DNA of 63,412 nt, counting the filler, from Sphacelaria rigidula (taxonomy: Eukaryota): assembly GCA_964200075.2 (NCBI GenBank). It is 11 parts of 11 records of this genome, joined end to end, with 100 filler letters (N's around TTAATTAATTAA, not from the genome) between each part and the next. Parts side by side here need not be neighbours in the genome. Positions count along the whole stretch, not along the records: positions 11,549 to 17,222 come from CAXNAA020025362.1; 10 more parts are not named here. The stretch is one strand, 5' to 3'. This document shows positions 5,675 to 52,448 of the stretch, one piece after another; positions within the stretch are counted from its first letter, which is position 1; every line of letters starts with the position of its first letter. The notes below the pieces were generated by a model. That model ran no database searches. It was not told where the DNA came from and saw only the letters and a list, made by a program, of their open reading frames with translations. Position numbers and translations under genes: made by a program.

Positions 5675-5774
5675 NNNNNNNNNNNNNNNNNNNNNNNNNN
5701 NNNNNNNNNNNNNNNNNNTTAATTAATTAANNNNNNNNNNNNNNNNNNNNNNNNNNNNNNNNNNNNNNNNNNNN
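5675..5774. other. Artificial contig linker (44 N + TTAATTAATTAA + 44 N); first of 10
   Basis: Identical 100-bp linkers at 5675-5774, 11449-11548, 17223-17322, 22997-23096, 28771-28870, 34545-34644, 40319-40418, 46093-46192, 51867-51966 and 57640-57739. TTAATTAATTAA gives stops in all six frames. Intervening contigs are 5674 bp (x9) and 5673 bp (x2). Confidence 0.99.
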
Positions 5775-5833
5775 AGATTTTGCATCCCAAAACCATGCAC
5801 TTTCCGGGGGGGGGCTATCGTAGAAAGTGTCTC
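5775..5833. mobile_element. Right end of GAG-terminal MITE family C
   Basis: AGATTTTGCATCCCAAAACCATGCACTT...GGGCTATCGTAGAAAGTGTCTC matches 17632-17691. Confidence 0.75.
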
Positions 5834-7854
5834 ACGCGCATTATCATTGCGAGGACGGTGTACACAAGGTCGGTAACAAATAAGACGGCAATGGCACAAA
5901 TCGCAAATCCGTCGAATCGACATGTGAACCTGAAACGTAATACGATTTTAGGCCATATCACCCCAGTACGAGAAAAAAACCCTGCTACAGTCAGTGCAAT
6001 GACGGGAAATAAGGTGCCAGACAGAAAAAATGCGAAAGAGGAATTACGTCCGGCTTGACGCAAAGCTTTCGAAAATACGACTTTTCCCCCGGAACAATGC
6101 TCTCAAATACGGGATCTTTGGGCAAAATACCGTTCTGTGTTTTCACTTAATCCGCAGGAGTTGGGCTGTTGTACGTTAGATAAAGCACGTTTTCCGCTCA
6201 AACCTGGGACTCAGCCGGTAGACCGAGCACCATATAGAGCAAACCCCAGAGTGCAAGACGCAATCGACAAATGCGTCGACCAAATGGAAAAAGATGGTAT
6301 AGTCGAACAACGCACAGGCCCGTGAGGATCAGCGGTTACAATGGTCGCAAAAGCAGATGGAACAGCATGATTTTGCGTAGATTATCGAGAAATGATAAAT
6401 AAGAACTTGGTTCACAAATCATGGCCCATGCCAGCTATCGAAAGTCACATAGAAACAGTAGCGGGGGCGAATTTCATAACAGTGTGCGATGTACAAAGTG
6501 CGCTCCACCAGATACCAGTAGCGGAAAGCGAAAAAGAGAAAACAGCGTTTGTAACTCAGAGAGGGAAATGGGTGTTCAACCGGTTACCATTTGGTTTAGC
6601 TTTCTGAACCTTTATCTTCTCACGCATAATGGCACTTGCATTTGCCCACTTCGGACCTAAGAGTGGCTTACTAGTATATATGGATGACATATTTTTTTGT
6701 TGTTCATCAAGCTGGGAGAGTCATCCCACCCTACTAGAAAGCACGTTCCAAGCACTGCAAACAGCAGGCCTTACACTGAAGCCGACAAAAATCCAATTTG
6801 GTTCAAAGCAAGTCAAAAATATTTGGGTCATGTACTGTTCGCAGATGGCATCAGAGTGAGTGATGAAAGAATAAAAGCTATCCTCGACTTGCCGAAACCC
6901 ACACATATCAAAGAGTCAAGATCAGTACTCTGTACAATAAATTTCGTACGGAAATTCGTACCAGACTTGGCTACAGCCATAGCACCACTGGTAGATCTAA
7001 CAAAAAAAGGGGCGGCAAAACAAATGTCGAAACTTTTGAATACTGAACATGATGAAGCCTTCGAGAAACCAAAATTGATGACTGAGGCACCCGTCCTTCA
7101 TTTTCCAGATTTCACGAAAGACTTCATCATAATAAACGTTGATGCTTCAGACCGTGGGGCCGGGGCCTACGTCTCCCGAAGGAAAGGCAAAGACGAGGCA
7201 ATCGTAGCATACTTCAGTCAACGTTTCAATGACGCCCAGGCCCGTTATCCGCTCACCATGAAAGAATGTTACGCGATCGTACTGGCGATTCAACATTTCA
7301 GAGCTTTTCTCTGGGGATGTCACTTTACGTGTGTAAGAGACCATGCCGCTCCTCGATATTTGTATGCGATGCAGGATACAAGTAATATGTTGACCCGATA
7401 GGCAATCGCATTGCAATCGTATGATTTCACGGTCAAACATAAACCAGGGAAACTTGATGTTACACCGGACACCCTCTCACGGCTATTTGCGTTTGAAAAG
7501 CGACAGGAAGCAGAAATCAAGCCGTTGCTTGCGCCGATATGTCGTAACGTCCCAGAAAACCATGAGTTACAGATAGCTAAGCCACAACATCAGTTCCAGA
7601 TTTCAGCTGAAAAGCTCGACAATTTGAAACCGGTGCAAAGTGATCGAGAGTTGTTCACCGTGAAATCAGTACACGTAAGCGCAGCGAACGTCTTCACGTC
7701 AATCAACCGCAAAAAATTGCGAGAAGAGCAAGCAATAGAGTACGGTCCCTACATCGAATATATCACGGAAAAAGATGCTCCGATACCAGAAAAAGAATCG
7801 CTCACATCGATGTCACATTATTCAGTACATGGCGGGATTTGATTCAAATCTTAC

Positions 7855-9333
7855 TTGCCGAGACACTTGAAAAAACGAAGCACAGTTTGTGATCAACTTG
7901 TGCTACCTAAGACCCTAATAGGCTCGGTGCTACATGCATACCACGACCATGCACTATCAGGAGGCCACTTAGGATTCAAGCGGACATACGACAAAATCCG
8001 ACCGAAGTGTTATTGGCCATCAATGAACCGCGATATCAAGGGTTGGTGCTTAAAATGTCAGAGTTGCCAACGCCGATCGACGCCCCGCCGGCAAAAATTG
8101 CCAATGGGACACATTCCAGTAGAGAGACCATATGAACGAGTGTCGGTTGACCTGGTTGAATATAAAACGGCTTCAATATCCAACGCCGGAGTACTATGTA
8201 AATACGTACTGACAGTAATGGACCACCTCACAAGGTATGATTTACTCATTCCAGTCCCGAATAAACAAGCCACGGCGATAGCCAAGACCCTTATCGACAG
8301 AGTTTATACAACATTTGGCATCCCAATGAAGCTCCACAGCGATCAAGGGGTCGAGTTTGAGAACAAATTAATATACGCACTGCAACAAGAGTTAGGTTCC
8401 GATAAGACACATACAACCCCTTTACGTCCGCAAGGCAACTCAGTGTCGGAACGCGTCCACTCCACTATGCACATGATGTTATCGATGCATATGTCAATCG
8501 GAAACAAAAACTGGGTATCCATGCTTCCATTCGTCCAAATGGCGTACAACACCTCTTATCATAACACGGTACAAGAGACACCGTATTTTATGTTGTTTGG
8601 AAGACAGCCCACGTTGCCAGTGGACATGATTCTCGGCATACCAGAAGAAGGCCAAGCGGCGACACCCGAGGAATCTTCCAAGGAAACACGGGAACACCTA
8701 CAGTTTGGATTTGAAATCGCGAGACAAGCCTTACGAGAAAGGGCGGACGAGCAAGAAAACAAAAACAAACTAAAATATTTCCCAGTGTTCGAACCGGGGC
8801 AAAAAGTTCCATTGTATCGACCATTTCAAGACTCAGAAGGGCCGAATCCCAAACTTCAGCTACCATGGAGAGGTCTATTCACGATAACCGAGAGACGATC
8901 GCCGGTTGTATACAGAATCAAAATAGACGACGGCTCTAAGGAAACATCAGTACATCTCGTTCATCTCAAGAAATATCACCCGCGAGAAACCGCACCAGCA
9001 CCAGACTTTGACAAGTTGAGCGAGCTGTTTTTAGGTAGACAGATACCTCTACCAGAGATAGACCAACCAGACGGAACATTGCCCACAATAGAACGCTACA
9101 CCGTCGAAGAAGTGGTGGGTCACGCGTCAGGCCCAGGTCGGAGGAGTAGCCATAACTATAAATATCGGTGGAGACTCAAAGGTTACGGCCCAGCGGCTGA
9201 CCTGACCTACCGTGCGGATGAAATACCGCAATGCAGACATCTCATTGATAAGTACCGTCATGACAATGGGTTAGCTGAACGCTCACATCCGGACTCGAAA
9301 TCCAAGACTACAGGGAAACGGAAACGGACGTGA
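7855..9333 (+). CDS. Gypsy integrase with C-terminal chromodomain (uninterrupted 492-aa frame)
   Basis: HHCC finger (HDHALSGGHLG...CLKCQSC), DDE core (SVDLV, HSDQG, NSVSER), GPY/F-like PKLQLPWRGLF, and chromodomain-like YTVEEVVGH...YRWRLKGYGPAADLTY at ~9091-9255. Confidence 0.9.
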   Translation: MPRHLKKRSTVCDQLVLPKTLIGSVLHAYHDHALSGGHLGFKRTYDKIRPKCYWPSMNRDIKGWCLKCQSCQRRSTPRRQKLPMGHIPVERPYERVSVDLVEYKTASISNAGVLCKYVLTVMDHLTRYDLLIPVPNKQATAIAKTLIDRVYTTFGIPMKLHSDQGVEFENKLIYALQQELGSDKTHTTPLRPQGNSVSERVHSTMHMMLSMHMSIGNKNWVSMLPFVQMAYNTSYHNTVQETPYFMLFGRQPTLPVDMILGIPEEGQAATPEESSKETREHLQFGFEIARQALRERADEQENKNKLKYFPVFEPGQKVPLYRPFQDSEGPNPKLQLPWRGLFTITERRSPVVYRIKIDDGSKETSVHLVHLKKYHPRETAPAPDFDKLSELFLGRQIPLPEIDQPDGTLPTIERYTVEEVVGHASGPGRRSSHNYKYRWRLKGYGPAADLTYRADEIPQCRHLIDKYRHDNGLAERSHPDSKSKTTGKRKRT

Positions 9334-11042: not shown

Positions 11043-12123
11043 CTCGAGCACAACGTGGTACAACACAACACGGCACGACACGACACGATGCCAAAGTTTC
11101 TTTGTTTCTCCGCGCATTTACAAAAATTATCATGGCGGCAATACAGACGAAACACTACGCATGGAGGAGTCCACCAATTGAAAGTCTACTTGGGATGTAC
11201 ACAAATAGTGCATGATTATAACAAGCGCTCGGTTCGATGGTCAACACGACGACAACGTCTGACCGTCGCCTCGTCTTGTTTATCACGGTTGAAAAATTCT
11301 GCCATGCTAAATTTTGCGGCAGCTACGTACCGTAAGGCCGGATGTTATGGCAAACAGATTTTTGGCCCACGGATTGTTCACTTTCATGACGTTTGGCCCA
11401 CCTTTTGACCCCCAAGCCTAGAAAACCGCCAACACACGTCTTGGACACNNNNNNNNNNNNNNNNNNNNNNNNNNNNNNNNNNNNNNNNNNNNTTAATTAA
11501 TTAANNNNNNNNNNNNNNNNNNNNNNNNNNNNNNNNNNNNNNNNNNNNCGACTCATCATACTAAAACCAAGTAATTTTCGGACGAATCATTATTTGTCCG
11601 ACCCTTGAAAGATTCGATTCTGTGTTCGGGAGGAACCGATGTTTTGTGCAGGAGCGGGTAGAATTTCCCCAGATGTTCAGGGTGGTTGAAGCTTCAGAAG
11701 TCATGTCAGAACATTGGCCCAAGCGATCGCCTGTGAAATGACCCAGGTGGGACGGTCCAGTGTGGAAGAAGTAGCAAGGTGCAAGGGCAAGTGCATCTGC
11801 GGTGAAGTGACAAAAACGGTGTGTGGATGAAGCTCGAGGTTTGTGAGATCAGGGAAACGGGTGGATAGATCATCAGCGGGTGATATCATCTTGAACCATT
11901 GTTGCCCGAGTTTGTTTCGTGCGTATAACGCGACAAAATTCGACAGCAACTGCCTACCTTTCATGAAAGCTTCGTGCGGCGACTTTCTTTAGCTCACCAT
12001 TTCTATAGGTGTCGTCCATAGGATTCATGAGGCGAGATTTGAAGATCATTGTTGTATTTTACCTTCTCGTGCGTCGAGATAAAAATGACGTTTGATGGAG
12101 CATGATCATTGATGTACATGTAC

Positions 12124-12200
12124 CTCGTGGGGCAAATCGAGCCGAAGAAGCCTCTGCCGTCGGCGTGATGCTCCTTGCTTCCAGCAGCAATGTGTCCCAC
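12124..12200 (-). CDS. Exon 5 of lectin-like/Tweety-like membrane protein model (post-TM loop)
   Basis: CAG acceptor and GTAC donor. VGHIAAGSKEHHADGRGFFGSICPT(R), phase-compatible with the previous exon. Confidence 0.45.
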
Positions 12201-12562
12201 CTGCCAACCACAAACATTTCACACAAGTGCAAAAACAAAAGAGGTGACATGGAGGCTTGTCAAGAGCATCAACAAAAACACAACGGACAGAAGCAATCAA
12301 CCTAATTGGCGAGATCAGCGCGAAACAAGCGACCAAAAAGACAAAAAATGAAGATGAAGCATGAAACACGGGTTTCTCCCCCTCCTTCCCTCCCTTTCTC
12401 TCTCTCTGTCATCCCACAAAAAAACGGATAATACAATCAACAAAAGAAGACTGTAAGTACACCCCCCAAAAAACATCAGCGTTTTTTGTCGTTCTCGAAA
12501 ATACAAAAACATCGATTAGTGTGATGGGAACCCCGTCGTTCTCCGCTCCTCTCGAATCTCAC

Positions 12563-12633
12563 CGGAAGACAACAGCACGCCACGATAAAGCCAACGACCA
12601 ACACCGGTACGGCAGTAAAGATAATACCGTCGA
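12563..12633 (-). CDS. Exon 4: transmembrane helix + CCC
   Basis: GGCAG acceptor and GTGAGA donor. (V)DGIIFTAVPVLVVGFIVACCCLP, with a phase-1 start matching exon 3. Confidence 0.7.
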
Positions 12634-13669
12634 CTGCCACCGACAGAGAGATAGCGGCATCGTCGAACGACGAAAAAGAGAGGCGTAGACACGTGCACGA
12701 AGAACGGGCCGGGGAGCGGGGGGCGGGAGAGCGACATCGCTGACGGTGAACTTCACGCGAGCTCATAGTAAGTTATGCCTTCTGATCGATGACCCGTGCG
12801 TCGATTATTTTCGAGGTAGCGTGAATAGCTACGACAAAACTGTTTTGGCATTTCGAAACAAAATGAAAAACGACCAAGACGTGGGTGGGGATTTCGGGAG
12901 ACAAGACTAAATATGTCCCAACGGATAGTCCGAAGGCTCTGAGGCGGTACCGGCGTTTCCACGTAAGCCTGCCTATGCGAACGCGTCAACCGGGATATGG
13001 GTCTCTATCTGCTGTGAAGATAGTTCTGCGTACACAGAGGGGATGCTCCGGTCCCCTATATTAGCTTGATGTCATGACGCATCCTCCCAAAGACGCATCT
13101 AGCCATGCCCCTCAGAGCACTTCAGTTCTCTTCCTGTCTCAACCACTCCATGTTGGCCAGACTACCTACCACCGGCCTAGCGCACTCGAGTGAGAACATT
13201 CGAACGAGAGAAAAATACAACGCTATCAACAACGCCAGTCTATCTTACGTCCGCGTGACAAGGCTTCAACCAATCTACTGCGTGGCATTTCTTTTGGAGA
13301 GGTTGCGGATACGCCGGGATAGGTTTACTCGCACTTTCCGACGCCCTGACAGTAGACGAGGATACAGCGCAGAGTGAGTTCGTTCCTCTTTTCTGTGGTG
13401 GCGCTATAATGCATCCACCCCGTTCTACGATATAATCCAACATCTCGAGTGACGACAAGTGATGTGTACGTTTGACGATTGAACAACAGCGAATCAGTTC
13501 TCACTCAAACGGCACACCGTTACCACGAGCGGAGTCAGTAGCAACAGCAAGCACCAGCAGCACCAGGGGCTACTCAAGGCACAACACCGCCATTGCGCGC
13601 ATGCACAGCAGGAGTAATACCCAGCACCCCGCGCGCACAGCACAGCAGCTTCATATCGCAGGCACGCAC

Positions 13670-13859
13670 CGTATCCATCATCGGCCAGGTCGAACTCGTT
13701 ACTCCCGGCTACGCGCACCCAGCTATTCAAGTGCTCCACTGTGGGCGTAAGAGTGTACTCCGGTCGTGTGTAATTATCAACCTCCCATTCCGCTAATTGC
13801 ACGTCCGGCAGCGCCCCCGTGGTCACATCGATAGCCTCTGTAGAAGCTCCGGCGCAAGT
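13670..13859 (-). CDS. Exon 3: Tweety-like N-terminal segment
   Basis: TCAGASTEAIDVTTGALPDVQLAEWEVDNYTRPEYTLTPTVEHLNSWVRVAGSNEFDLADDGY with a GTGCGT donor. The acceptor is AAG at 13862-13860, or alternatively CAG giving a start at 13837. The pattern Y..xV..L....R....F......Y before TM1 resembles the Tweety/TTYH N-terminus. Confidence 0.62.
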
Positions 13860-14732
13860 CTTGAGTTTTGTGTGTTCATGCGTTTTCGTGTATTTGGGGT
13901 TGAGGGTGAGGGTGAGGGTGGGGGTGGGAGGGATCGCCACATGTGCATTGATCCTAATTTCGTGTTCATTATACTTAAAAAATCTACGAAATGTCTATCA
14001 TGCACGACCGTGTAACCATATGGATGCAACTTCATGGCAGGAGATCTTGAACTATATACACGGAAGGAACGATTTTTTCCCGGGGAGGGTATCGCCCAAA
14101 CCATTTTGGGGTCATGACTTGGATGCCGTAGAGAGAGTGCAGAGAGTGTATGAAAACGGGGTGGTCAAACGACAAGGAGGTCTTGTCACAAATGATCAAC
14201 GTCAGCATCGACGGAATGGAAGCGTCGCACATATTCACCGCGGTTCTGGTTGGTCATTTATTCCAAGCGTGTACTTCGAATTTGGCATCATGGCACAAAG
14301 GGAGAATAACTTTCGAGATAACCAAGAGATGACACGGATGCAATCCTTTTGAAATTGCGGTTGTTTTTAGTAAAATATACACACAAAAAAATCGATGCCC
14401 GGTAATGTAGTAGGGGTATAGCACAAATGAGTACTATAACCATGACACGAAACGTGGGGTAACACTTTCGAGAAAGCAACAGATGAACGAGTTTGATTCT
14501 TAACGGGTTGCCATTGTTTTTATTTTAGTATAATACGTCGACACACATAGCCATCCGGTGCCCCCGTATCCACGAGGGTATACAGGGCAGGATAAACCGA
14601 TATTACATAGAGAACCAGTGCATCTTGATATCTTCTATTGTGTGCACGCCACGGTCGGGTGACCCATGGCGTTGCCGTCGACACCCCAGCACCGTAACCC
14701 TTCATCCACACCATATCGCCTAGTCAGCTCAC

Positions 14733-14846
14733 ATCGTTTGCAGGGGGGCAGTACGATGGCCCCCCTTCCCGCGACCAGCAGAGCGAATCGCCGAGATCAT
14801 CCCCATCTGACGTGTAGCGCAGCCACACCGTCTCAACGCCAGCGTC
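14733..14846 (-). CDS. Exon 2: end of Mtc6/PI-PLC-associated lectin-like module
   Basis: CCCGCAG acceptor. DAGVETVWLRYTSDGDDLGDSLCWSREGGPSYCPPAND, then either a GTGAGC donor or read-through to TGA at 14726-14724. Confidence 0.72.
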
Positions 14847-16166
14847 CTGCGGGAAAATGACCACATCCCGCGAAAATGACGAAAACAACGAAGCAAAACC
14901 CAATGCATTAGTTGAGCTTTCGCGTTCTAGTTTGGGGATTTGAGGTGACACGCTCTACACATTTGGAGTTCAAATTAACCCTTGAGGAACCGACGCACTT
15001 CAGCAGTTTATTTTTCCAACCGTTCTTCTCATAGCTCAGCAAACCTCCCGCCCCCTCCCGTCACTTGCACTCGTTGGGACGGACCCGTAGTCTTGAGAGA
15101 TCCACTCTTCTCCCCTCTCGACATGGTCCCAAATGCCAGTACTCATACAACCTGTCGCTTATTTACCGATTCCTCTGTTCTCTTGCTTAGCGCGCGTTTT
15201 CACTTTTTGTACGATGACACACCTCAGGAAGAGGGAGAGGGAAAAAAGTAATGTGTTTCGTAATCGAATGTACGTGGATCACCGACGTTCAAATAAACTA
15301 CGACACCTGTCACAGCGAAAAACATCCCAGCTTCGTCACATGATCGTCCAAGTAGAGCACGGCGTATTACCACCCGGTCGTGTCACATGTTAGAGACATA
15401 TATTTTCACCCAGGCATGGCATTTAAGGGGTGGTATGCAACGTCTCGCGGTGCAGTACCATAGGTACCGATATGTTGCGAAAACCGCGGGAATCCTATTA
15501 CACGGGGAGAGCTATTCAGGGGGTGATATACAGCGCACGGGCGATATCTACATCGTGTTTGTTGATACGTCGCCAACAACCAGAGCCTTCAAGACTTCGC
15601 TGGGTCGTGCCTGAGCTCCGATGCCCCGAGGGTCAAATTCCTCGAAACGAAACTTGGTGATTGTAGTACAGTATGATAAACGGTACCCATGGAACAATGC
15701 GATATGAAAAAAATGTGATTGTAGTACAGATAGTTGCGAGTAAACGATACCACTCCAACATGATACAGCGTGGCTGCCCTTGAATCACTTGGTGAATTTA
15801 TGCCCCAGACGGGAGAAGAAAAAAGAAAGGTAAGTTATGCACTACCTCAACAAGGGCCTGCTATTTTACTAGTCTTTCATTACTTTCTTCTAACGGGCAT
15901 ATCCGTTCACTTAGCTCGATTGATTGATGTCTACATTTTGATTGCGGTTGGGTTCGAGGTGGTTAACTCAATTGTGCGACAGTCCATCGATTGATGAAGC
16001 AACCACTCGATCCACCAGCGTGGACCACTTCACTTGCAAGGATGCAAGGATAGTACACGTTGAACACTCTAAAAATAACACTCGATCGGCACGTACAGAT
16101 TGTACGAACGCGAATTGTTGACAGTAGACAGCCTTGAGGGAGAAAAATAACACCTGTTTCACTCAC

Positions 16167-16492
16167 CTCCATTGCCCTCCGAACAGCCAAATTCTCGAAT
16201 GCAGTCCTCGGCGCGCTGAACACAAAACCTCCCCCAAGGGAAGCGCACGCCTCATCAGCCAAGTCAAACAGCCCAGTGTACTGGTACGACCCTCCGCCAT
16301 CATCGTCCTCGCTATCATCCTCCTCACTATCGTCATCATCCTCGCTATCATCATCATCCTCCTCACTATCGTCATCATCTTCGTCTTCACTATCTCCATC
16401 GTCGTCACTTTCGTCGCCATCATCATCCTCTTGTAAAGATGCCGAGGCGTTGTATACGGGCACTACTCTCCAAAAGTACCGCTCGCTTTGGT
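16167..16492 (-). CDS. Exon 1 (internal): acidic tract + lectin-like module
   Basis: TTCGCAG acceptor and GAG|GTGAGT donor. DQSERYFWRVV-(D/E/S-rich tract)-FDLADEACASLGGGFVFSAPRTAFENLAVRRAME. The C..G..F..PRT..EN motif resembles the C-terminal module of fungal Mtc6 and PLC-like phosphodiesterases. Confidence 0.78.
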
Positions 16493-17437
16493 CTGCGAAA
16501 TGGAACATGACACACGAATCGGGATGAGAGGGCGGCGGGGAGGGGGAGGACAAGATCAGCCAAAGCAGGGAGAGTTTATTCTTGATGCTGTTGTTGGACA
16601 TGTTTGACGACGTACGTGCTGCGAGTTTCGTCAGATAATGTCTTCACATTCATGTTGAGTGTACAAATACGTCCATCTGGTACCATGACTGGTGAACCAA
16701 TCGGTTATTGCTTAACGTGCGACAATCAATCGAACCAACTCACCAAGAGAGACACGGTAGTCCGAAGTACAAAACTTAGCAAAACGGTTCGTGTACAAGC
16801 TGCTATGTATACTCAGAGGACAAGACTATGTGTGATTTCCGGTCTTCGAGACTGCCAACAGCAAAGCAAGGCACATCCCCTTGGAAATCATGGAGAGCGC
16901 GATGTTGCAATCCGTCTCGTGCCTTCGCTGTTGGACATTGGCTACTGTGGCTCAAGAAGACAGAGGCATGGACAGGGAGCGATGCCGCATGCCATCACCG
17001 TGGGGGCCATGAACCATCTCGTTTTTTCCCGGGGAGCGCTTTTTGCATAAGATGATCCACCAAGACCGCTCGTTTCTGTCTTGTAAAAAAATGGCCAAAC
17101 AAGGTTTGTCCCAGTCCCACCTACCCGTAATCCCCATCTGAGAGCCGGGTGAGGGAAGGGGAACGAAGCGGGGTGGGGGGGGGTGTACTCATGATAATGC
17201 TTGCCATAGTCATCAGACCATTNNNNNNNNNNNNNNNNNNNNNNNNNNNNNNNNNNNNNNNNNNNNTTAATTAATTAANNNNNNNNNNNNNNNNNNNNNN
17301 NNNNNNNNNNNNNNNNNNNNNNCGAATGTTCGGATAACATGCCAAACTATCATTTTTGCGCATAATCGGCTCGCGTGCTTTGGTACACGTAGAACGTTAT
17401 ATGAATAAATTAGAGCAAAAGTCATGAGAAGATGTCT

Positions 17438-17691: not shown

Positions 17692-18159
17692 TAGTAGGCT
17701 ATGACTTGTAGCCCGTCTTATCGTATATACAATCGAGAAACTGGTTGAATTGCAAGTTCGAGGAATGTTACCTTCATAGAACAAGCAACCGGGATTATCT
17801 CCAATTATACACATGCTACTTGGGGGAGAGAAAACGGGGATAGTAATGATGATATTTTCGAACTTCCAAACGATGAACAGCAAGAACATTTCAACTTTAG
17901 CAACGATATATACGACGGTATCACTCGATTAGAGCACTCACCTATTGAGCAAACTACACCGATGCGACTTCGTTCTGCGGGTAGCCCAGATCGTGATACA
18001 TCTCAACAAATGAACACCCGGCAAGCCAGAGAATTGCGCAAATTTGCCATCAACTCTGCTGAGTACTATCAACACTCGAAAATAATTCTCGATAATGTTA
18101 CCCAATATATAGAAGTAGTCGGTATCGAAGATGTACCACCTGCATCCATCCCACTTCCA

Positions 18160-19714
18160 AATACCTATAAACAGGCGTTATCTTCACCATTTGCAACGAA
18201 GTGAAAAGCTGCCATGCTAGACGAACTACAAAGCATATCGGACCACAAAGTGGCAGATACTTTTCCAGCAAGTTTGGTACCTCCAAACAACAACATAGTT
18301 GGTATGCTTTGGGTGTACAAAGTTAAAGCAAATGAAAAGATTCAAGGCTCGTTTAGTTGTTCAAGGTTGGGCACAGAAATATGGGTTTGACTGTGGAAGT
18401 ACCTCCGCACCTTTATGTAGACTAGAAAATCAGAGGACTTCATTAGCAATAGCTACAGTGAAAAATTGGCCCATAATAGCTCTTGATGTGCAAACCGCAT
18501 TTTTTAACGGCAGATTGAAAGAAACTGCGTTCTGTAAACAGGCACCTGGATTTGAAACATCAGATCCAGATACTGGTAAACCACATGTGATGCGTCTTAG
18601 GCGTGCTTTATACGGGCTACGCCAAAGTCCTAAAGTGTGGAATTTTACAATTGAGACTGAACTACAGAGCATAGGTTTCAAAGCGACTGCAAGTGATCCG
18701 TGTGTTTATACAAGGGGGCAACAAGAACACGACGTCATGATCACTTTGTTCGTTGACGATATCCTAGATACAGGACCATGCATCGAAATCTCACAAAGTG
18801 TACAAGACACTCTCAAAACAAAAATTGCAATAACAGACTTAGGACCTGTTTCACTTATTTTAGGCATGGGGGTAATCATAGATTCTGAAAGAGGGTTCGT
18901 GAAACTTTCACAGCATAATATGTACCAAATATTCTACAAAAGTTCAAAATGGACTCCTGCAACACCGTACATACACCAGGTATAGCAAATCAGTATACCG
19001 AAGAACCAGAAGAAAATCTTTCAGACCAAGAACAGACGAAACAATACCAAGCAATGGTGGGTAGTCTAATCTTCTAGCACAATGCACCAGATTCGACATA
19101 GCCTTCAGCGTTACTCAGGCAGCTCGCCATATGAGTAAACCAACTACCCATCATTCAGCTGCAGTGAAACGTGTATTTCGGTCCTTGAAAGGGATACCGA
19201 ACCTACCTATCACGTACCGCTTCTCGAAGAATAACTCGAAACTACGAGGATATAGTGATTCTTCATACGGTAACTCAGGTTCACAAGGTAGAATGAGATC
19301 AACCACAAGAACTATGTTTTTTTATCTCACGGATTACTCCACTTTTCTTCAAGTCTGCAGAAAATTTCGGCTTCTTCAACTACTGAAGCAGAACTGATAG
19401 CTTCAGCCAAGGGGGGAAAATTTGGAATGCATTTACTAAATCTCCTACGTGAACTTGGCTGGTCATCGATGGAAACACCCACTATTCTTTCAGATTCTCA
19501 AAGGGCACTCAATTTATCATCAAATCCTGACTATAGCACGAGTAGCAAACATCTAGCTATAAAGTGTTTTAATCTGAAAGATATGATAAGAAACGATCAA
19601 GTAAGAATCAATCATGTGAAGTCAGAAAATCAACTTGCTGACATCTTCACAAAATATTGCAAAAAAATAGTACACCACAGACTCTTGCAACAGGTGGAGG
19701 ACTTTGGGAAATAA
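18160..19714 (+). pseudogene. Copia RT-RNase H pseudogene
   Basis: ORF fragments 18299-18985, 19131-19397 and 19427-19714 are separated by frameshifts and stops. Confidence 0.9.
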
Positions 19715-22370: not shown

Positions 22371-22935
22371 TAGGTCGAGTACAGTATACTCAATACTCAG
22401 TATTTTTGAAGAGTCATACTTTCAGTACTCAAAATTTTAGTCGAGTATTTGAAACCATACTCACCCTACTCAAACTTTGAGTTGAGTATTTGAGGCCGCT
22501 CTCGACCTACTCAAATTGTGAGTGGAGTATTGAGGTCACACTCAAGTGAAACCCTATACTCAAGTATTACTTAGAGTACTTACTCAAAATTTGAGTAGAG
22601 TATTTGATGTCGTACCCGATCTACTCAAGATTTGAGTTGAGTATTTGAGACCATACTCCACGTAATCAAACTTTGAGTTGAGTATCGGAGGCCGTACTTG
22701 ACCTACTCAAACGTCGAGTAGAGTATTGAGGTCATACTCAAGTAATACTCTATACTCAAGTATTACCGAGAGTGCTTACTCAATATTTGAGTAGAGTATT
22801 TGAGGTCGTACTCGGTCTACTCAAAATTTGACTAGAGTATTGAGGTCATACTCGGTGATACTCTATACTCAAGTATTACTGAGAGTGCTTACTCAAAAAT
22901 TGAGGAGAGTATCGGAGGCCGTACTGGACCTACGC
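22371..22935. repeat. Higher-order palindromic minisatellite (TACTCAAAnTTTGAGTA core; ~41-bp and ~74-bp units)
   Basis: About 10 diverged units, e.g. CTACTCAAACTTTGAGTTGAGTATTTGAGGCCGCTCTCGAC. Three longer units carry TATACTCAAGTATTAC. Confidence 0.9.
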
Positions 22936-23237
22936 ACAATTTAACAGCCGATTTTAAATTTTGGGGTTCATACAAAATATGGGGTTGAAGTGGCATNNNN
23001 NNNNNNNNNNNNNNNNNNNNNNNNNNNNNNNNNNNNNNNNTTAATTAATTAANNNNNNNNNNNNNNNNNNNNNNNNNNNNNNNNNNNNNNNNNNNNTGTT
23101 CAGGGGTCCACGGGGATAAAGTTTGGGGGGTGTTGTGAGCTCGGGCGTGAGGGATGGGGAGATGGTCGGTGGTCTCTTCACCGCTAGGCTAGTTTGTCAA
23201 CATGGTAACTCGGTCGAAGCAACCACACTTATCAATA

Positions 23238-24876: not shown

Positions 24877-27800
24877 ATGGCTCAAGAGGCGGCAGCGCCG
24901 CTGGTGTTGGGTGAGCCTCTAGAACCGCCAAAGTATGGCAAAGTGTGGACTGAAGAAGCGTCAAGAATTTTCTGTGCCAGATATCTTGACCGCATCAAGA
25001 GGTTATATTCAGCCAATGCAAGAGGAGTCATAAGGCATGAGAGAGTGGGCATCAGACAACTCATCCCTACCTATATTCACCGGTGCTTTGAAGGCATGTC
25101 CAAGGACCGTCGGGCTATCACTCCCGACGAATTGCTAGATGCTGTGAAGCCCCATACCGGGTACACCACAACCAGCGGCAAGCGTGACACTGCGCGGGCT
25201 GCAGCAGACCTTCGTAGAGTTCTTACGATGCAGCAAAGCGGCGGAACGTCCGTCAAGCATCGTGCGGTGATGATCAGTTCATCGATGGAAAAGTGTCTCG
25301 CTGAAAACCCCACGGTGCAAGCCATGTACCGTGCGGACGACATGAGCTGGTTGCCAGGCCGGCCGAGTCGGTTTCCACAGCTTTGGTGGACAGGAATTTG
25401 TCTCGGGAATTCAAGGCGTATGTTACAAGCATGCTAACATATGTAGAAGGCTGGGAAAAGAATCCGACGGTGGTGTTCAACAAAACATTTGATGCCGCCG
25501 ACCACTGAAAGTTCATTGAAGCACATGGCCGGCGAAATTCTGCAACAAGTGCAGGCGGTGCGCGTCGCGAACAACAACAGCAACAGAATCAGCATCCATC
25601 TCCGCGAGCGTCGTCCACTATCACATGTTACAACTGCGGCGACACCGGACATAGGATCAAGGATTGCCCCAAGCCTCGCGCTCAAGGCGCTGCTCAAGGA
25701 AATGCGTGAGATTCATCAGGATCTCGAGGCGGTCGTCACGGTGGACGGGGCCGTGCCAACCAGGGATGCGGCCGCGGCGGCCGCACTAGCAAGCAACCGG
25801 CGGCGGATGGTGATCCCTCCGCTTCCACTACGTCATCAGGTGGTGACTCTGGATCTTATGGTTCGTCCGTAGCGGTGCGGACAGCGTACGTGGGAAATGC
25901 AAATACTTCGGTGGGAAATGCTGGGGCGAATAGTTCGCAATCCCTCGGCCAGGCAGGATCTGTGTCTGGTGCATTTCCTACTGCTGCGACGGCTGTAACA
26001 GCGCCGTCTGCATATTTGGCGACGTGGTCTGGTTGGACCGATGATTCTCAGTTATCGATGTCAAGTGCTGGAGGGCAGCCCTGGCGTCAGGTGATTCTTG
26101 GTACCGACCAGGGTTCTTCGGCAGGCGTGGTACCTGTCGATCGCAAGGCTGAATGACAAATGTCTTCGCAGTTTGGTGGCGCTCAGCTTCAGATTCCATG
26201 AAAAATCGGACCGCAAACTGCACAGACCGCCACGGGTGCTCCCGTGACGGTTACACGCAAAACGGTCCCGATTACTGTTAGCGTGCGTAAGCCGTTGGGG
26301 GCTGTGGAGTTGCAGCCCATTACTTTTGCTGCCATGCCTGGTAGGGGCAACGTCGTTTAATTTGGGATGGCGACGATAAAGGAGCTCGGGATTGATCTGT
26401 ACTCGCTGGCGTTGGATAAGTTACCACCGCGTGCTATGCCGGTGCAAATCGGCGTGGAAAATCCCAGCTATCTTGCTGCAAGGCGTATGACCGTATCCAT
26501 ACGGTCATTCCAGAGCGCCAGTGAGGAGGAGGCTCCTGCGGATGAAGCGATGGAGCGCTTGGTCGATCGGGGATCCGACATGTTTATGGACCCAGCGGAC
26601 GAGAGAGGTGCAAAAGAACGTGCGCTTGAAGATAGCGTGCAGCAGGCCGAGCAGAAGGGCGCCGATGGCGTACATTGTCTGCGTGATATTTTGGCTCGTC
26701 GCGTCGATACATTTCGTCGTGCGCTGCGTGGTGATCCGCCAGCGCGCGTAGAGCCCATGAGGGTGCACCTCAAGCCACAGGCAAATGCGGTGAAGGCCCC
26801 AAGCCCAGACGCTATGATCCGGTGAAGACCGAGTGGCTTGTCTCATGCATCGCAGCTTTGGTGGTGTTTGGTTTAGTGGCCAGGAATATCCGGGCTATGT
26901 GGGCGAGTCCGGCGTTAGCGGTGCCGAAGCGAGACACATTCCGTTTGGTCAGCGACAATCAGGCGGTGAACGCGCGCAAGTGAAACAGTCTCCGGGGTTG
27001 ATGCCAACCCAAGAAGACGTGAGGGAGTTGCTGGGAGCCCAATGCTTTGGCAAGTTGGACCTGCTCCAGGGGTATTGGCAGATGATGCCTCTGGCGCCGG
27101 AGGCTCAGGAGATCTTCACGATCGTCACGCCGGACGGTTTGTGTACGCCTACTCGTGTCCCGCAGGGCGTGTTAAACGCCACGGCGTATTTCCAAGGTGT
27201 GCTGACTGACATTTTGCAAGGTTCAGACTGTAAAGTGTGGGTGGATAACGTTTTCTATATTGCTGAAACCGAAGAAGTATTGTTAGCTTTGCTTGACGAA
27301 ATTCTCGGCCGCTTGGAGAGTGTTGGTCTGCTCGTCGCTGCGCATGAGTGTACTGTTTTTGCCCGCAAAGTGGTTTGGTGTGGTAAGGTGTACTCCAAGG
27401 GTACTGTTTCGCATGATCCCGTCTGCATCCAAGGTTTGAGCAATATGCGACGTCCTCAAACCTCTAGTGAGCTGATGCAGTTTCTGCAGGATGTGAATTG
27501 GTTGCAGACTTCGCTCCCGCGCATGGCGGGAGTAGTTACGCCGCTCCGAGTGTTTTCGGAACAACTTGTGGTCGGGGCTTCGCGTCGGACCAAGCGGGTG
27601 GCGCGTAATCGTATTATCCAGGAGGACGCTTGGACGGAGGATCGTGTGCGGTCATGGCGTGCTGCGCAAGATTTGGTGGCGCAAGCGGTGCCGCTGTATC
27701 ATCCTCGTCCAGGGTGCGTTGTTCTCATGTTTCCAGATGCTTCGGATTTTCACTGGGGTAGGTTTTTGACGCAAGTGCGTGTCGCAGCGTTTAGTAGTGG

Positions 27801-28365
27801 CATTGCGCTCGACAGGATGTCACACGAACCGTTGGCTTTTCCGAGTGGTAGTTTTTAGGGTTCACAGTTGCGGTGGGCGACAGTGGACAAAGAAGCTTTC
27901 GCGAGAGTCAATACATTCCGAAGGCTAGAGTACTTGCTCTGGGATGGTGTTCGCATTTTCATCAATCATCGCAATCGAAAATACATTTTCAACCCCGAAG
28001 AGTGTGTCACATCGGTGACGAAGGCCATGGCAAAACGGCTTGAAAATTGGAAAGCAGTACTAGGCTAATATCGGTATGTCATTGAGCATATTCCTGGAGA
28101 GCGCAATTGTTGAGGAGATTTGTTATCTCGCTGGGTGAAGGTTCCTACCGTGCCTATTCGTTCGGTTGCCGTGTACAGCCCGTGTGACGCCGATGATTTG
28201 CTTCCCTCGTTAGATGTCATTCGTACCGCGCAGCGCAAAACAGCCGGCGACGGTTTTCATTCTTTTCCTAAGACTTTCTGTCAAGCCGCTTTGGCTGACG
28301 ATGGTTTGTTTCGCGTGCGTGTCGGCAGCAGTGATATTTTGGGGATTCCGTCGGGTGATGAGGCT
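24877..28365 (+). mobile_element. Degenerate Ty3/gypsy element (gag-like, RT, RNase H)
   Basis: GDPPARVEPMRVHLKP, FGKLDLLQGYWQM, VPQGVLNATAYFQ, WVDN (decayed YxDD), FPDASDFHWG, WATVDKEAF. Many frameshifts and stops; truncated before the integrase core. Confidence 0.9.
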
Positions 28366-40273: not shown

Positions 40274-40290
40274 GAGCAATGCTACGGTAG
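38524..40290 (+). CDS. Gypsy RT-RNase H open frame (588 aa; last codons come from the MITE)
   Basis: SPWASPLVVVPK, FSTFDLASGFFQ, MPQGA, YFDD, ELEGG, HTDH. Contains a 15-bp duplication (PYRTNPYRTNP). Confidence 0.88.
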   Translation: MPALTGHYLAKMLPRVGAPAGTEHFVSAGKQLLPLTGNASLEPGDVLGIAAAPLMHIPLETCATEPSTPNPAPPTDGSVNFVDEPYFDVTSSSSSRIHALDPAPSTSEPSAEVLQRLSPESRTSFLHMWDQVPPQLRDINFDLHGPGWEPAVIKEFSDVLLEYQDRFSLSKMDLGHCKTLPFEITLQPGVSPISSRPYRTNPYRTNPILTRNINAILDAYLGAGLIQHSSSPWASPLVVVPKTDGDIRITVNYQRLNRVTVVGKLPIPRIDEVFDSLGEGKIFSTFDLASGFFQNPIHPDTVPLTAFCTSSGLYEWRRMPQGAATAPGCYQRLMQRVTENLEHAIMYFDDAITFDASPLAHVRTLREFLSRLRKHDLKLSAFKPRLGATDLDFLGHSISPAGLHPETNEVRAMAELPMPTNITQLRSLLGGLSYCRNFLRNLSKRIRPITDLLKKGAAFVFTNDMEAILRDLLKTLTEKPVLCFPDWDAVQDGCSLFQLHTDPSIDGLGAALDQSQLDGSIRPILYISRATLPNEANWSPLELEGGVITWAIKCLQQYLFYVPFQIHTDHGALEQLAKVGEHNRAMLR

Positions 40291-40418: not shown

Positions 40419-40486
40419 TTTTGTGGATTTGTTTTTTGGGGCCGTTGTCGGTGGTTTTGGGGGGGGGGGTATCGTAGAAAGTGTCT
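40419..40486. mobile_element. End of MITE family C
   Basis: GGGGTATCGTAGAAAGTGTCTG is the reverse complement of the family C left end. Followed by a (CTG)n tract. Confidence 0.7.
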
Positions 40487-51831: not shown

Positions 51832-52448
51832 ACCCACCCACCTTCTTGCCCGCTGCGCTACACCTCNNNNNNNNNNNNNNNNNNNNNNNNNNNNNNNNNN
51901 NNNNNNNNNNTTAATTAATTAANNNNNNNNNNNNNNNNNNNNNNNNNNNNNNNNNNNNNNNNNNNNGTCATTCCTAACCAGCCTCGTTGGTCATTCTGGA
52001 GGCCCAGTCCCAAAAGGGTTAATGCCCTGAATTGCCATTTTCTTCATGGCAGTTTTGGGGTTGGTTTCAGGGAGGGGGGGGGGGGGTTGCTATCGCGGCA
52101 TGACTGAAACGTGATTCGCGTCTTTTTTCTCTCCGGTAGCGCCCGCGTATGGTCCATCTGATCTGAGGGGGGGGCGCCGCACGTCGAGCCAAGGGTGAAG
52201 AGGTTTGATGTTCAACCATGTTTTTTCGGAGAGCCGGGTCGGCCGTAACTCCTCATAGAATCTTATCCACGGGTTCGCTTTGCTTCTACATTAGAGTATC
52301 ATGTTTTTTTAACACGCACTACGCAAGTAAAAATATCGCCTCACACATCCACTCACTCTCATACTCACGAATCACACAAACGCCTCCCCCCCACCCCCAC
52401 CCCCACCCCCACCCCCACCCCTTCACTTGTCATCACAATATTGGGCAG

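What the first reader, a model, noticed from the sequence alone, without database searches (positions are those of the whole stretch)
12124..16492. Possible fusion of an Mtc6/PI-PLC-type lectin-like ectodomain to a Tweety-like membrane protein
Seen in sequence: five minus-strand GT-AG exons (16492-16167, 14846-14733, 13859-13670, 12633-12563, 12200-12124) join with compatible phases. They read ...ACASLGGGFVFSAPRTAFEN...VWLRY...CWSREGGPSYCPPAND|TCAG...YTLTPTVEHLNSWVRVAGSNEFDLADDGY|VDGIIFTAVPVLVVGFIVACCCLP.... From knowledge: C..G..F..PRT..EN..VW....CW..GG...CP resembles the C-terminal module of fungal Mtc6 and PLC-like phosphodiesterases. The segment before the TM helix plus CCC resembles the Tweety/TTYH N-terminus. 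Inference: one protein may couple an extracellular glycan- or lipid-processing module to a Tweety-type lipid-handling membrane unit. I do not know this architecture from any described protein. The junction depends on an AAG acceptor; exon 2 could instead stop at 14724, giving two genes under 900 bp apart. The model is invisible in the ORF track.
Basis: partly seen in the sequence, partly recalled or inferred. Interest (0 to 1): 0.72.

Follow-up and report, generated by a model that had tools for sequence, protein, structure and literature searches.

The report
Brown-algal Tweety protein with phospholipase-lectin ectodomain
The five predicted exons are real and spliced exactly as proposed, and they form the middle of a brown-algal gene that joins an outward-facing phospholipase-C-like and lectin-like module to a Tweety membrane protein, an undescribed combination that hints at how the enigmatic Tweety family handles lipids.

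Summary
In each of 4 of 4 transcriptome-like runs, one ~6 kb contig joins the five minus-strand exons at the predicted borders, including the AAG acceptor at 13859.

The spliced 258 aa align colinearly (53% identity, E 1e-56) to residues 383-568 of a 924-aa brown-algal protein. That protein has a PI-PLC-like N-terminal domain, the lectin-like module, five hydrophobic segments, and a Pfam Tweety match of 53.6 bits against a cutoff of 31.8. It also matches solved TTYH1-3 structures.

The "C..G..F..PRT..EN..VW" module is the N-terminal half of a C-type lectin-like domain. The exon-4 helix plus CCC sits where Tweety TM1 is expected.

There are three limits:
- The window holds only the lectin-like module, stalk, TM1 and TM1-TM2 loop. 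It is a concatenation of 11 separate ~5.67 kb pieces, and the gene runs off both ends of its piece.
- Mtc6 kinship rests on an Atlas lead only.
- Both AlphaFold models have low confidence.

No paper found describes this architecture. I rate it a new variant of a known kind, interest about 0.57.

The parts
11549..17222 (.). The one contiguous piece of DNA that holds the finding (5674 nt). It is bounded on both sides by synthetic linkers of 44 N + TTAATTAATTAA + 44 N. The gene runs off both ends.
   Evidence: Searches show the linker structure and the 5774-nt period. One search shows high-depth repeat ends at 11549-11611 and 17177-17222 with many divergent continuations.
16167..16492 (-). Exon A (326 nt). 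It encodes the last residues of the PI-PLC-like domain, an acidic linker (78% D/E over 46 aa) and the first half of the C-type lectin-like module (helix 1 with Cys, then the APRTAFEN stretch).
   Evidence: for frame and composition. for contig cover 16166-16494. for homologues. for the CTLD profile match.
14847..16166 (-). Intron 1 (1320 nt, GT..AG, phase 0).
   Evidence: joint 14845>16166 (cut +1) in 4 of 4 runs. In 9 of 10 related read-through ORFs a V (GTx) follows the same position (read by eye).
14733..14846 (-). Exon B (114 nt). It encodes the 'VWL' strand of the lectin-like module and two conserved Cys.
   Evidence: In one search the alignment to bacterial CTLD repeats runs on across the exon A/B junction.
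13860..14732 (-). Intron 2 (873 nt, GT..AAG).
   Evidence: joint 13859>14733, no ambiguous letter, in 4 of 4 runs.
13670..13859 (-). Exon C (190 nt). It encodes the fourth Cys and the extracellular stalk or juxtamembrane segment, which is conserved in brown-algal relatives.
   Evidence: 63% identity to P0026 over 63 aa, E 2e-20..
12634..13669 (-). Intron 3 (1036 nt, GT..AG).
   Evidence: joint 12633>13670 in 4 of 4 runs.
12563..12633 (-). Exon D (71 nt). It encodes a hydrophobic helix followed by CCC. This is the first of five membrane segments and sits at the place of Tweety TM1.
   Evidence: hydropathy peak 2.75, residues about 207-241. (first of five segments in P0022, P0024 and P0028). (in 5 of 9 TTYH rows the alignment starts at model residues 510-514, before this helix).
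12201..12562 (-). Intron 4 (362 nt, GT..AG).
   Evidence: joint 12197>12560 (cut +3) in 4 of 4 runs.
12124..12200 (-). Exon E (77 nt). It encodes the first part of the cytoplasmic TM1-TM2 loop. The mRNA continues about 3.6 kb into exons that are not in the window.
   Evidence: contig cover 12122-12197 and a loose end before 12122. (69% identity to the Ectocarpus Tweety protein P0028 over 77 aa).

Best explanation
Positions 12124-16492 (minus strand) hold five consecutive internal exons of an expressed brown-algal gene with an mRNA of about 6 kb.

By homology the protein reads, from outside to inside:
- a signal peptide;
- a PI-PLC-like TIM-barrel phosphodiesterase domain (not in the window);
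- an acidic linker;
- a short C-type lectin-like module with four Cys;
- a conserved stalk;
- a Tweety (TTYH-type) five-helix membrane domain, of which the window holds TM1 with its CCC and part of the TM1-TM2 loop;
- a long low-complexity cytoplasmic tail.

The Tweety N-terminus is extracellular, so the fusion places the enzyme-like and lectin-like domains on the cell surface, directly above the Tweety extracellular domain.

The most likely mode of action is inferred, not shown. The Tweety part offers its membrane-open hydrophobic cavity to lipids of the outer leaflet or of bound particles. The tethered PI-PLC-like domain acts on their phosphodiester head groups. The lectin-like module positions the assembly on a glycan or protein ligand.

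I put about 0.85 on the architecture and about 0.35 on this functional coupling.
For: Splicing and expression: one ~6 kb contig in each of 4 of 4 runs joins the five exons.

Flanking exons: the loose ends of these contigs, translated by hand in frame, continue into sequence that matches P0022 on both sides. Upstream, 9 of 18 residues are identical at the end of the PI-PLC-like domain. Downstream, the C-K-x-G-D..GSG stretch of the TM1-TM2 loop follows.

Orthology: the spliced peptide aligns to P0022 383-568 at 53% identity, E 1e-56, colinear across all junctions. It also aligns to P0024 (48%), P0026 (56% over 146 aa in the composition-adjusted alignment, E 2e-46) and P0028 (69% over 77 aa).

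Tweety part:
- Pfam PF04906 scores 53.6, 53.5 and 48.1 bits against a cutoff of 31.8.
- phmmer of P0022 against the PDB gives 7 of 8 hits as TTYH1-3, best E 5.1e-5.
- P0022, P0024 and P0028 each have five hydrophobic segments.
- Foldseek ranks 1-11 are all TTYH, best E 5.6e-5.
- VIA ranks 1-9 are all TTYH, Z 13.4-15.4, 265-317 residues aligned.

Lectin-like module:
- The 44-aa piece of exon A hits 8 giant bacterial proteins, E 5.8e-9 to 1.7e-4. All 8 carry multiple Pfam Lectin_C domains.
- The family profile hits tetranectin CTLDs, E 5e-4.
- hhalign against Pfam-delimited Lectin_C segments gives probability 98.4%, E 6.4e-15 over 52 columns.

PI-PLC-like part:
- P0027 and P0029 carry precomputed PF26178, named PI-PLC_cat.
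- In VIA-wide, 7 of the top 8 rows are PI-PLC catalytic domains, Z 4.8-6.1.
- The motifs THNS[FY], G-V-R-G-L-E-x-D and C-H are conserved in 5 of 5 relatives.

Lipid role of Tweety: PMC8361169 (passages read) reports five TM helices, the N-terminus outside, and a hydrophobic extracellular pocket open to the bilayer. PMC12328215 (abstract read) reports that TTYH2 accelerates lipid transfer.
Against: - The window itself holds neither the PI-PLC-like domain nor Tweety TM2-TM5 (only the five exons hit). For this organism, continuity into a Tweety domain rests on 30 nt of loose end plus the length of the contig.
- Single exons give no Pfam hit at E<=10. The relatives give no Pfam Lectin_C or PI-PLC-X hit at E<=0.1 in the local Pfam copy.
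- The lectin-like homology covers only the first half of a CTLD. The long-loop, sugar-binding half is missing or unrecognisable.
- Both AlphaFold models are poor: mean pLDDT 51.7 and 47.9, and under 50 over the lectin module and TM1.
- VIA Z values of 13-15 lie only just above unrelated helical bundles at 12.8.
- All four runs come from one study, and their RNA nature is a guess by the tool.
- P0022, P0024 and P0026 are automatic gene models, and P0026 is visibly faulty.
- No evidence bears on catalysis or on coupling between the domains.
Confidence: 0.78

Rival explanations
1. The architecture is the same, but the ectodomain is a non-catalytic binding or sensing module. On this reading the PI-PLC-like barrel and the truncated lectin-like domain only bind a wall, matrix or partner ligand. 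They anchor or regulate the Tweety unit without cleaving a lipid.
For: The lectin-like module lacks the recognisable second half of a CTLD. Paralogues P0029 and P0030 have lost two of its Cys and carry a coiled-coil tail instead of Tweety, which suggests a modular binding domain. Bacterial and oomycete relatives combine the same barrel with various lectin domains. Fungal Mtc6, a structural neighbour by an Atlas lead, has no known enzymatic activity to my recollection.
Against: The motifs at the places where PI-PLC enzymes keep their catalytic His and metal ligands (the assignment is recalled, not tested) are conserved in 5 of 5 brown-algal relatives. This is not expected of a dead enzyme.
Confidence: 0.3
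2. The fusion is an artefact or a read-through. Two neighbouring genes, a secreted PI-PLC/lectin protein and a Tweety protein, are joined by gene predictors and by a minor chimeric transcript, and the cell makes two proteins.
For: P0022, P0024 and P0026 are automatic models, and P0026 is faulty. P0027 ends right after the lectin-like module. Free-standing PI-PLC/lectin paralogues exist (P0029, P0030).
Against: The frame is open and colinear across all four junctions. The stalk exon is spliced directly to the TM1 exon in 4 of 4 runs, with no alternative form among the listed contigs. Without exon D the Tweety part would lack its first helix. The same join is found in at least three other brown-algal gene sets.
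Confidence: 0.05
3. The copy in the window is a partial, non-functional duplicate. The ~6 kb mRNA comes from an identical full-length copy elsewhere in the genome.
For: The piece is only 5674 nt and ends in repeats. Relatives have tandem paralogues g7113 and g7114. Contigs cannot tell identical copies apart.
Against: The contigs show 0 other letters over all 782 exonic bases. A 158-nt low-depth piece matches intron 4 exactly, as unspliced RNA from this locus would. Short contigs that end in repeats are what a fragmented assembly gives for any gene.
Confidence: 0.07

Closest known systems
Tweety homologues TTYH1-3 (Pfam PF04906; PDB 7P5J, 7P54, 7RTT, 7RTW, 9G71)
   Same: Both have five membrane helices with the N-terminus outside and a helical extracellular domain. 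The brown-algal relatives of the window's gene pass the Pfam cutoff and match TTYH1-3 by sequence and by fold.
   Different: Animal TTYHs have only a short extracellular N-terminus with one small helix before TM1 (PMC8361169, passages read). Here about 500 residues precede TM1: a PI-PLC-like barrel, an acidic linker, a lectin-like module and a stalk. Identity to TTYH is only 10-19%. The cytoplasmic tail is long and of low complexity (P0028).
PI-PLC-like proteins with a C-terminal C-type lectin domain (Atlas clusters 'lectin-like protein' and 'C-type lectin domain-containing protein' in bacteria; oomycete PI-PLC X domain proteins; Pfam PF26146, PF26178, PF00059)
   Same: The ectodomain order is the same: a PI-PLC-like barrel followed by a lectin-type module. 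Atlas feature scores are 0.95-0.96 and structural TM is 0.73-0.77 for P0027. The brown-algal paralogues P0029 and P0030 are free-standing versions.
   Different: None of those clusters is reported with a Tweety domain. The brown-algal lectin-like module is shorter, with only its first half recognisable.
Fungal Mtc6 (maintenance of telomere capping protein 6; Pfam PF25506 TIM-barrel_MTC6)
   Same: It is a structural neighbour of the ectodomain in the Atlas: TM 0.70, aligned span 21-474 of P0027, feature score 0.87. To my recollection it is also a membrane-anchored luminal or extracellular glycoprotein.
   Different: This is a lead only, since a score under 0.9 is below the Atlas's own bar. To my recollection Mtc6 has a single membrane anchor and no Tweety domain.
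C-type lectin domains such as tetranectin (PDB 1TN3, 1HTN) and surfactant protein D
   Same: The first half is shared: helix 1 with its Cys, the helix 2 region and the 'WIGL'-type strand. The profile hits tetranectin at E 5e-4.
   Different: No Pfam Lectin_C hit was found. The half that binds Ca2+ and sugar in classical lectins is not recognisable, so sugar binding is not implied.

Membership tests
Tweety (PF04906) | Match to the family profile above Pfam's gathering score | tested here: met
   Met on the relatives: P0022 53.6 bits, P0024 53.5 bits and P0028 48.1 bits against a cutoff of 31.8. The window's own exons give no hit, because only TM1 and part of the first loop lie in the window and the profile alignments start at position 80 or later.
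Tweety (PF04906) | Five membrane-spanning segments, N-terminus outside | tested here: met
   P0022, P0024 and P0028 each have five hydrophobic segments, and the first is the counterpart of exon D. The outside orientation is inferred from N-glycosylation sequons and Cys-rich domains before TM1 and from the TTYH topology in PMC8361169.
Tweety (PF04906) | Fold likeness to solved TTYH structures, including TM1 | tested here: inconclusive
   Foldseek ranks 1-11 are all TTYH, best E 5.6e-5. VIA ranks 1-9 are all TTYH, Z 13.4-15.4, and 5 of the 9 alignments begin at model residues 510-514, before TM1. However, the model's mean pLDDT is 51.7 and is under 50 over TM1, and unrelated helical bundles reach Z 12.8.
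Tweety (PF04906) | In this organism, one mRNA runs from the window's exons into a Tweety domain | tested here: inconclusive
   The contigs continue 3601-3650 nt beyond exon E. Only 30 nt of that were shown, and translated by hand they match the TM1-TM2 loop of P0022 and P0028. The rest could not be read.
C-type lectin-like domain (PF00059) | Match to the Pfam Lectin_C profile | tested here: not met
   No Lectin_C hit on the single exons at E<=10 or on P0022, P0024, P0026, P0027, P0028, P0029 and P0030 at E<=0.1.
C-type lectin-like domain (PF00059) | Profile-level homology to bona fide CTLDs | tested here: met
   Met for the first half only. phmmer hits to 8 proteins, E 5.8e-9 to 1.7e-4, and 8 of 8 carry Lectin_C. 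Tetranectin at E 5e-4. hhalign probability 98.4%, E 6.4e-15 over 52 columns.
C-type lectin-like domain (PF00059) | Double-loop fold with two disulfides, and the Ca2+/sugar-binding long loop | tested here: inconclusive
   Four Cys are conserved in the fused forms, but the alignments stop after the WIGL-type strand. Both models are under pLDDT 50 in this region. The spliced module could not be handed to the fold tool.
PI-PLC-like phosphodiesterase (PF26146 PI-PLC_X / PF26178 PI-PLC_cat) | Profile match and TIM-barrel fold of PI-PLC catalytic domains | tested here: inconclusive
   This part is not in the window. P0027 and P0029 carry precomputed PF26178, named. No hit to these models appeared. 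Their absence from the local Pfam copy is my inference. PF00388 also gave no hit. In VIA-wide on a low-confidence model, 7 of the top 8 rows are PI-PLCs, Z 4.8-6.1. Foldseek found nothing at E<=0.001.
PI-PLC-like phosphodiesterase (PF26146 PI-PLC_X / PF26178 PI-PLC_cat) | Catalytic His pair and metal ligands kept | not testable with these tools
   The motifs THNS[FY], G-V-R-G-L-E-x-D and C-H are conserved in 5 of 5 relatives. That these are the catalytic positions is recalled from PI-PLC enzymology, not shown by an alignment here.
Fungal Mtc6 (PF25506) | Homology to the Mtc6 TIM-barrel and its C-terminal module | tested here: inconclusive
   Atlas only: feature score 0.87 (under the 0.9 bar) and structural TM 0.70 over residues 21-474 of P0027. 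No Mtc6 sequence was available to align.

The most novel reading that the evidence does not exclude
The fusion is a natural 'Rosetta stone' for the Tweety family. Tweety proteins lift lipids out of the outer leaflet or out of bound particles and hand them to a phosphodiesterase. Brown algae have fused the two into one 'extract-and-cleave' cell-surface machine, aimed by a lectin-like module. This would predict that animal TTYHs also work with a separate PI-PLC-like or GPI-cleaving partner.
Probability: 0.2. Interest if true: 0.8.

Novelty: new variant of a known kind. Interest (0 to 1): 0.57.

Why it matters
Tweety proteins were long taken for chloride channels. Structures showed no pore but a lipid-filled extracellular pocket (PMC8361169). 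In 2025 TTYH2 was shown to speed lipid transfer from APOE particles (PMC12328215, abstract). What Tweety proteins do outside animals is unknown.

A conserved fusion of a Tweety protein to an extracellular PI-PLC-like domain, a fold whose known members cut lipid head groups, gives an independent evolutionary argument that the family's business is lipids. It also yields a directly testable pairing of enzyme and lipid-presenting membrane unit.

For brown-algal biology it defines an unnamed surface protein family. The free-standing paralogues and the lineage-variable acidic linker point to domain shuffling at the cell surface.

In practice, the gene is invisible to ORF-based annotation of fragmented assemblies. 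It was recovered here only by splicing evidence.

Tried and rejected
- **Pfam on each exon and on read-through ORFs**: only acidic low-complexity noise.
- **phmmer of exon pieces against the PDB**: best E-values 1.4 and 0.46, meaningless.
- **Whole-genome search**: no genome is held.
- **The look-up of sequencing runs**: no RNA holder is listed as such. X1-X4 are 'RNA?' by guess and were judged by their joints instead.
- **Flanking exons in the window.** The two 30-nt loose ends have no match at up to 2 mismatches and no shared word of 11, 12 or 14 letters (words of 10-12 and 14 were tried). tblastn with P0022, P0024, P0026 and P0027 hit only the five exons. The Gly/Arg-rich faulty stretch of P0026 gave low-complexity hits elsewhere (E down to 2e-5), which I set aside. 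I first considered giant TE-filled introns or a gene fragment. That was rejected once one search showed the window is 11 linker-joined pieces.
- **Exon C as a search query**: only a read-through ORF from the same organism.
- **Spurious or unexplained hits:** P0002 and P0010 (internal repeats), P0018 (SRCR-like by eye), P0017 (Cys-rich repeats, no Pfam family).
- **Atlas search with P0022**: no usable hit.
- **NCBIfam** on five relatives: nothing.
- **AlphaFold of P0022 and P0027** with the thin alignments available: low confidence. The fold of the lectin-like module could not be judged. Foldseek on the P0027 model gave no match at E<=0.001.
- **Pfam on 181 other ORFs of the window**: only retroelement domains, all in other pieces.
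- **Earlier findings of this scan**: nothing on this genome or this family.
- **Papers:** no paper joins Tweety with Mtc6 (0 papers) or with PI-PLC (2 unrelated). Tweety with Ectocarpus gave 1 unrelated paper. None of the listed top rows for stramenopile or kelp terms mention Tweety.

Full report
**1. The observation**

The third acceptor is AAG. Joined, they give one open frame of 258 codons, while the other two frames are full of stops.

The frame holds, in order:
- an acidic tract, 78% D/E over 46 residues;
- four spaced Cys and three N-glycosylation sequons;
- one strongly hydrophobic 19-24 residue helix followed by CCC.

The decisive test was expression. The look-up of sequencing runs listed four runs of one study (X1-X4, 'RNA?' by the tool's guess) that hold only 0.12-0.15 of the words of window:11900-16900. 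It also listed four runs of a second study that hold 0.61-1.00. The exons make up 0.16 of that stretch.

I laid X1-X4 on window:11549-17222. Each of the 4 runs has one contig of 6029-6102 nt, depth 31.5-44.7, that covers 12122-12197, 12560-12633, 13670-13859, 14733-14845 and 16166-16494. These contigs show 0 other letters and four joints, all CT..AC on the + strand. The doubted joint 13859/14733 has no ambiguous letter.

Bins lying wholly within introns have depth 0, except one 158-nt low-depth piece in intron 4 of X1. The two-gene alternative (stop at 14724) is not what these contigs show.

**2. The window is not contiguous DNA**

The contigs extend about 1635-1670 nt beyond exon A and 3601-3650 nt beyond exon E. 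Their first 30 letters on either side are absent from the whole window.

The reason came from the N runs. Every one has the form 44 N + TTAATTAATTAA + 44 N, a six-frame stop linker. They recur every 5774 nt, so the window is 11 pieces of 5674 or 5673 nt joined artificially. These are most likely separate contigs of a fragmented, length-sorted assembly.

The finding sits in piece 11549-17222. Both ends of that piece are high-depth repeats with many divergent continuations, as contig ends usually are.

The retroelement ORFs found elsewhere in the window are therefore unlinked to this gene:
- gypsy-type, 6688-9333 and 38410-40287;
- copia-type, 17749-19714;
- a reverse transcriptase, 26818-27855.

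The gene simply runs off its contig.

**3. What the exons encode**

Single exons match no Pfam family and no PDB sequence.

I ran phmmer with the last 44 residues of exon A against 1.84 billion representative proteins. It gave 17 hits at E<=0.001:
- Five short ORFs that repeat the pattern 'acidic tract, then the conserved module, then read-through into an intron'.
- Eight giant bacterial proteins, E 5.8e-9 to 1.7e-4. All 8 carry multiple Pfam Lectin_C domains.
- Four hits that I set aside: two internal-repeat proteins, one SRCR-like, one Cys-rich.

A profile of the conserved 44 residues (A1) found 14 proteins:
- ten such read-through ORFs;
- EukProt models P0022 (924 aa) and P0024 (946 aa), both with precomputed Pfam PF04906;
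- P0026 (Undaria pinnatifida);
- P0027 (Discosporangium mesarthrocarpum, PF26178).

A further search with P0022 added three proteins:
- P0028 (Ectocarpus sp. 13, partial, PF04906);
- P0029 (Pylaiella littoralis, PF26178);
- P0030.

The spliced peptide aligns colinearly, across all four junctions, to these proteins:

| Protein | Region or span | Identity | E-value |
|---|---|---|---|
| P0022 | 383-568 | 53% | 1e-56 |
| P0024 | — | 48% | 8e-53 |
| P0026 | 146 aa | 56% | 2e-46 |
| P0028 | 77 aa | 69% | 1e-34 |

Translated by hand in frame, the two loose ends continue the match. Upstream, 9 of 18 residues are identical to the end of the N-terminal domain of P0022. Downstream, the conserved stretch of the TM1-TM2 loop follows.

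In 9 of 10 read-through ORFs a V (GTx) follows the position where exon A ends (read by eye). Intron 1 therefore appears to be conserved.

**4. The three parts**

*(a) Tweety.*
- P0022, P0024 and P0028 score 53.6, 53.5 and 48.1 bits on PF04906, against a cutoff of 31.8.
- phmmer of P0022 against the PDB gives 8 sequences at E<=10, and 7 of them are TTYH1-3. The best is 7RTW at 5.1e-5.
- Each of the three has five hydrophobic segments, and the first is the counterpart of exon D.
- The AlphaFold model of P0022 is poor, with mean pLDDT 51.7. Even so, Foldseek ranks 1-11 are all TTYH, best E 5.6e-5.
- VIA ranks 1-9 are all TTYH: Z 13.4-15.4, rmsd 5.5-6.6, 265-317 residues aligned. In 5 of the 9 rows the alignment starts at model residues 510-514, before TM1. 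Unrelated helical bundles reach Z 12.8, so the fold evidence only seconds the sequence evidence.

The Pfam alignments start at profile position 80 or later. The claim that exon D is Tweety TM1 therefore rests on position and topology, not on sequence likeness.

*(b) Lectin-like module.*
- The alignment to the bacterial CTLD repeats runs on across the exon A/B junction into the 'VWL' strand.
- The family profile hits tetranectin CTLDs at E 5e-4 and surfactant protein D more weakly.
- I compared the brown-algal module, including the window's, with Lectin_C segments delimited by Pfam's own best stretches. hhalign gives probability 98.4%, E 6.4e-15, but over only 52 columns.

So the first half of a C-type lectin-like domain is there. 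The half that binds Ca2+ and sugar in classical lectins is not recognisable, and no protein of the family passes Pfam Lectin_C. I call it lectin-like by descent and do not infer sugar binding.

*(c) PI-PLC-like domain (outside the window).*
- The Atlas names PF26178 as PI-PLC_cat and PF26146 as PI-PLC_X.
- It places P0027 next to oomycete PI-PLC X proteins and to bacterial clusters that combine PI-PLC domains with Lectin_C (scores 0.95-0.96, TM 0.73-0.77).
- The fungal MTC6 TIM-barrel cluster is a weaker neighbour (0.87, TM 0.70).
- My own model of P0027 is poor, with mean pLDDT 47.9. Foldseek finds nothing at E<=0.001.
- A PDB-wide VIA search puts PI-PLC catalytic domains at 7 of the top 8 rows, Z 4.8-6.1.
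- Three short motifs are conserved in 5 of 5 relatives. That they are the catalytic His pair and metal ligands is my recollection of PI-PLC enzymology, not a test.

P0029 and P0030 carry the barrel and the module but end in a coiled-coil tail without Tweety. Free-standing paralogues therefore exist.

**5. How it most likely works**

Shown:
- one mRNA joins the end of the PI-PLC-like domain, the lectin-like module, the stalk, TM1 and the first loop;
- relatives continue into a Tweety domain.

Taken from the literature:
- TTYHs are dimers with five TM helices and the N-terminus outside. A hydrophobic pocket in the extracellular domain opens to the bilayer and holds lipid-like density (PMC8361169, abstract and passages read).
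- TTYH2 binds APOE particles and speeds lipid transfer (PMC12328215, abstract read).

Inferred:
- The fusion sets an enzyme-like barrel of a lipid-head-group-cleaving fold on the outer face, right above that pocket.
- The economical reading is a surface unit that presents lipids and processes them, aimed by the lectin-like module.

I give the architecture about 0.85 and this coupling about 0.35. The main functional rival is a non-catalytic binding or anchoring ectodomain (0.3). Artefactual fusion (0.05) and a partial duplicate copy (0.07) are unlikely, for the reasons given under the rivals.

**6. Novelty and verdict**

The gene models exist in public sets but are unnamed ('unnamed protein product', g7114.t1).

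My literature searches found:
- no paper that holds Tweety together with Mtc6 (0 papers);
- two unrelated papers for Tweety with PI-PLC;
- one unrelated paper for Tweety with Ectocarpus;
- no mention of Tweety in the listed top rows for stramenopile, brown-alga or kelp terms.

These searches cover open-access papers and bioRxiv only.

The PI-PLC-plus-lectin ectodomain is a known combination in bacteria and oomycetes, and Tweety is a known family. Their fusion is a new variant of a known kind. The corrections are that the motif is a CTLD half, that the Mtc6 link is only a lead, and that most of both flanking domains lie off the contig.

Noticed in passing
window 5675-5774, 11449-11548, 17223-17322 and on, every 5774 nt to 57640-57739: Every N block has the form 44 N + TTAATTAATTAA + 44 N. 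The window is 11 equal-length pieces (5674 or 5673 nt) joined by six-frame-stop linkers, so features in different pieces are not genomic neighbours.
   Followed up: yes
window 11549-11611 and 17177-17222: Both ends of the finding's piece are covered at depths of thousands in runs X1-X4. The matching contigs diverge right after these ends. They look like dispersed, expressed repeats at contig ends.
   Followed up: partly
window 6688-9333 (+), 17749-19714 (+), 26818-27855 (+), 38410-40287 (+): Retroelement ORFs sit in other pieces. They comprise gypsy-type RNase H and integrase, copia-type RVT_2, an RVT_1 reverse transcriptase, and gypsy-type RT/RNase H. No LTR pairs were found.
   Followed up: partly
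window 22426-22945: A tandem array with a 196-nt unit and an internal 91-nt sub-repeat, copies 85-87% alike.
   Followed up: no
window 16299-16436 (exon A): The acidic linker between the PI-PLC-like domain and the lectin-like module is present in this organism and in several related read-through ORFs (P0003, P0007, P0011, P0013, P0016, P0020). It is absent from P0022 and P0024, so it is a lineage-variable insertion.
   Followed up: partly
P0022/P0024 (EukProt g7114.t1 and g7113.t1); P0026: The fused gene is present as two neighbouring-numbered models, 79% identical, in one EukProt genome, which suggests a tandem duplicate. The Undaria model P0026 has a long Gly/Arg-rich stretch where TM1 and the loop should be, which is probably a mis-called intron.
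   Followed up: no
many piece ends, e.g. 5780-5830, 17240 region, 40420-40470, 51867-51900: Long G or C homopolymer runs (9 to more than 30 nt) lie close to several piece ends. This may be why the assembly broke there.
   Followed up: no
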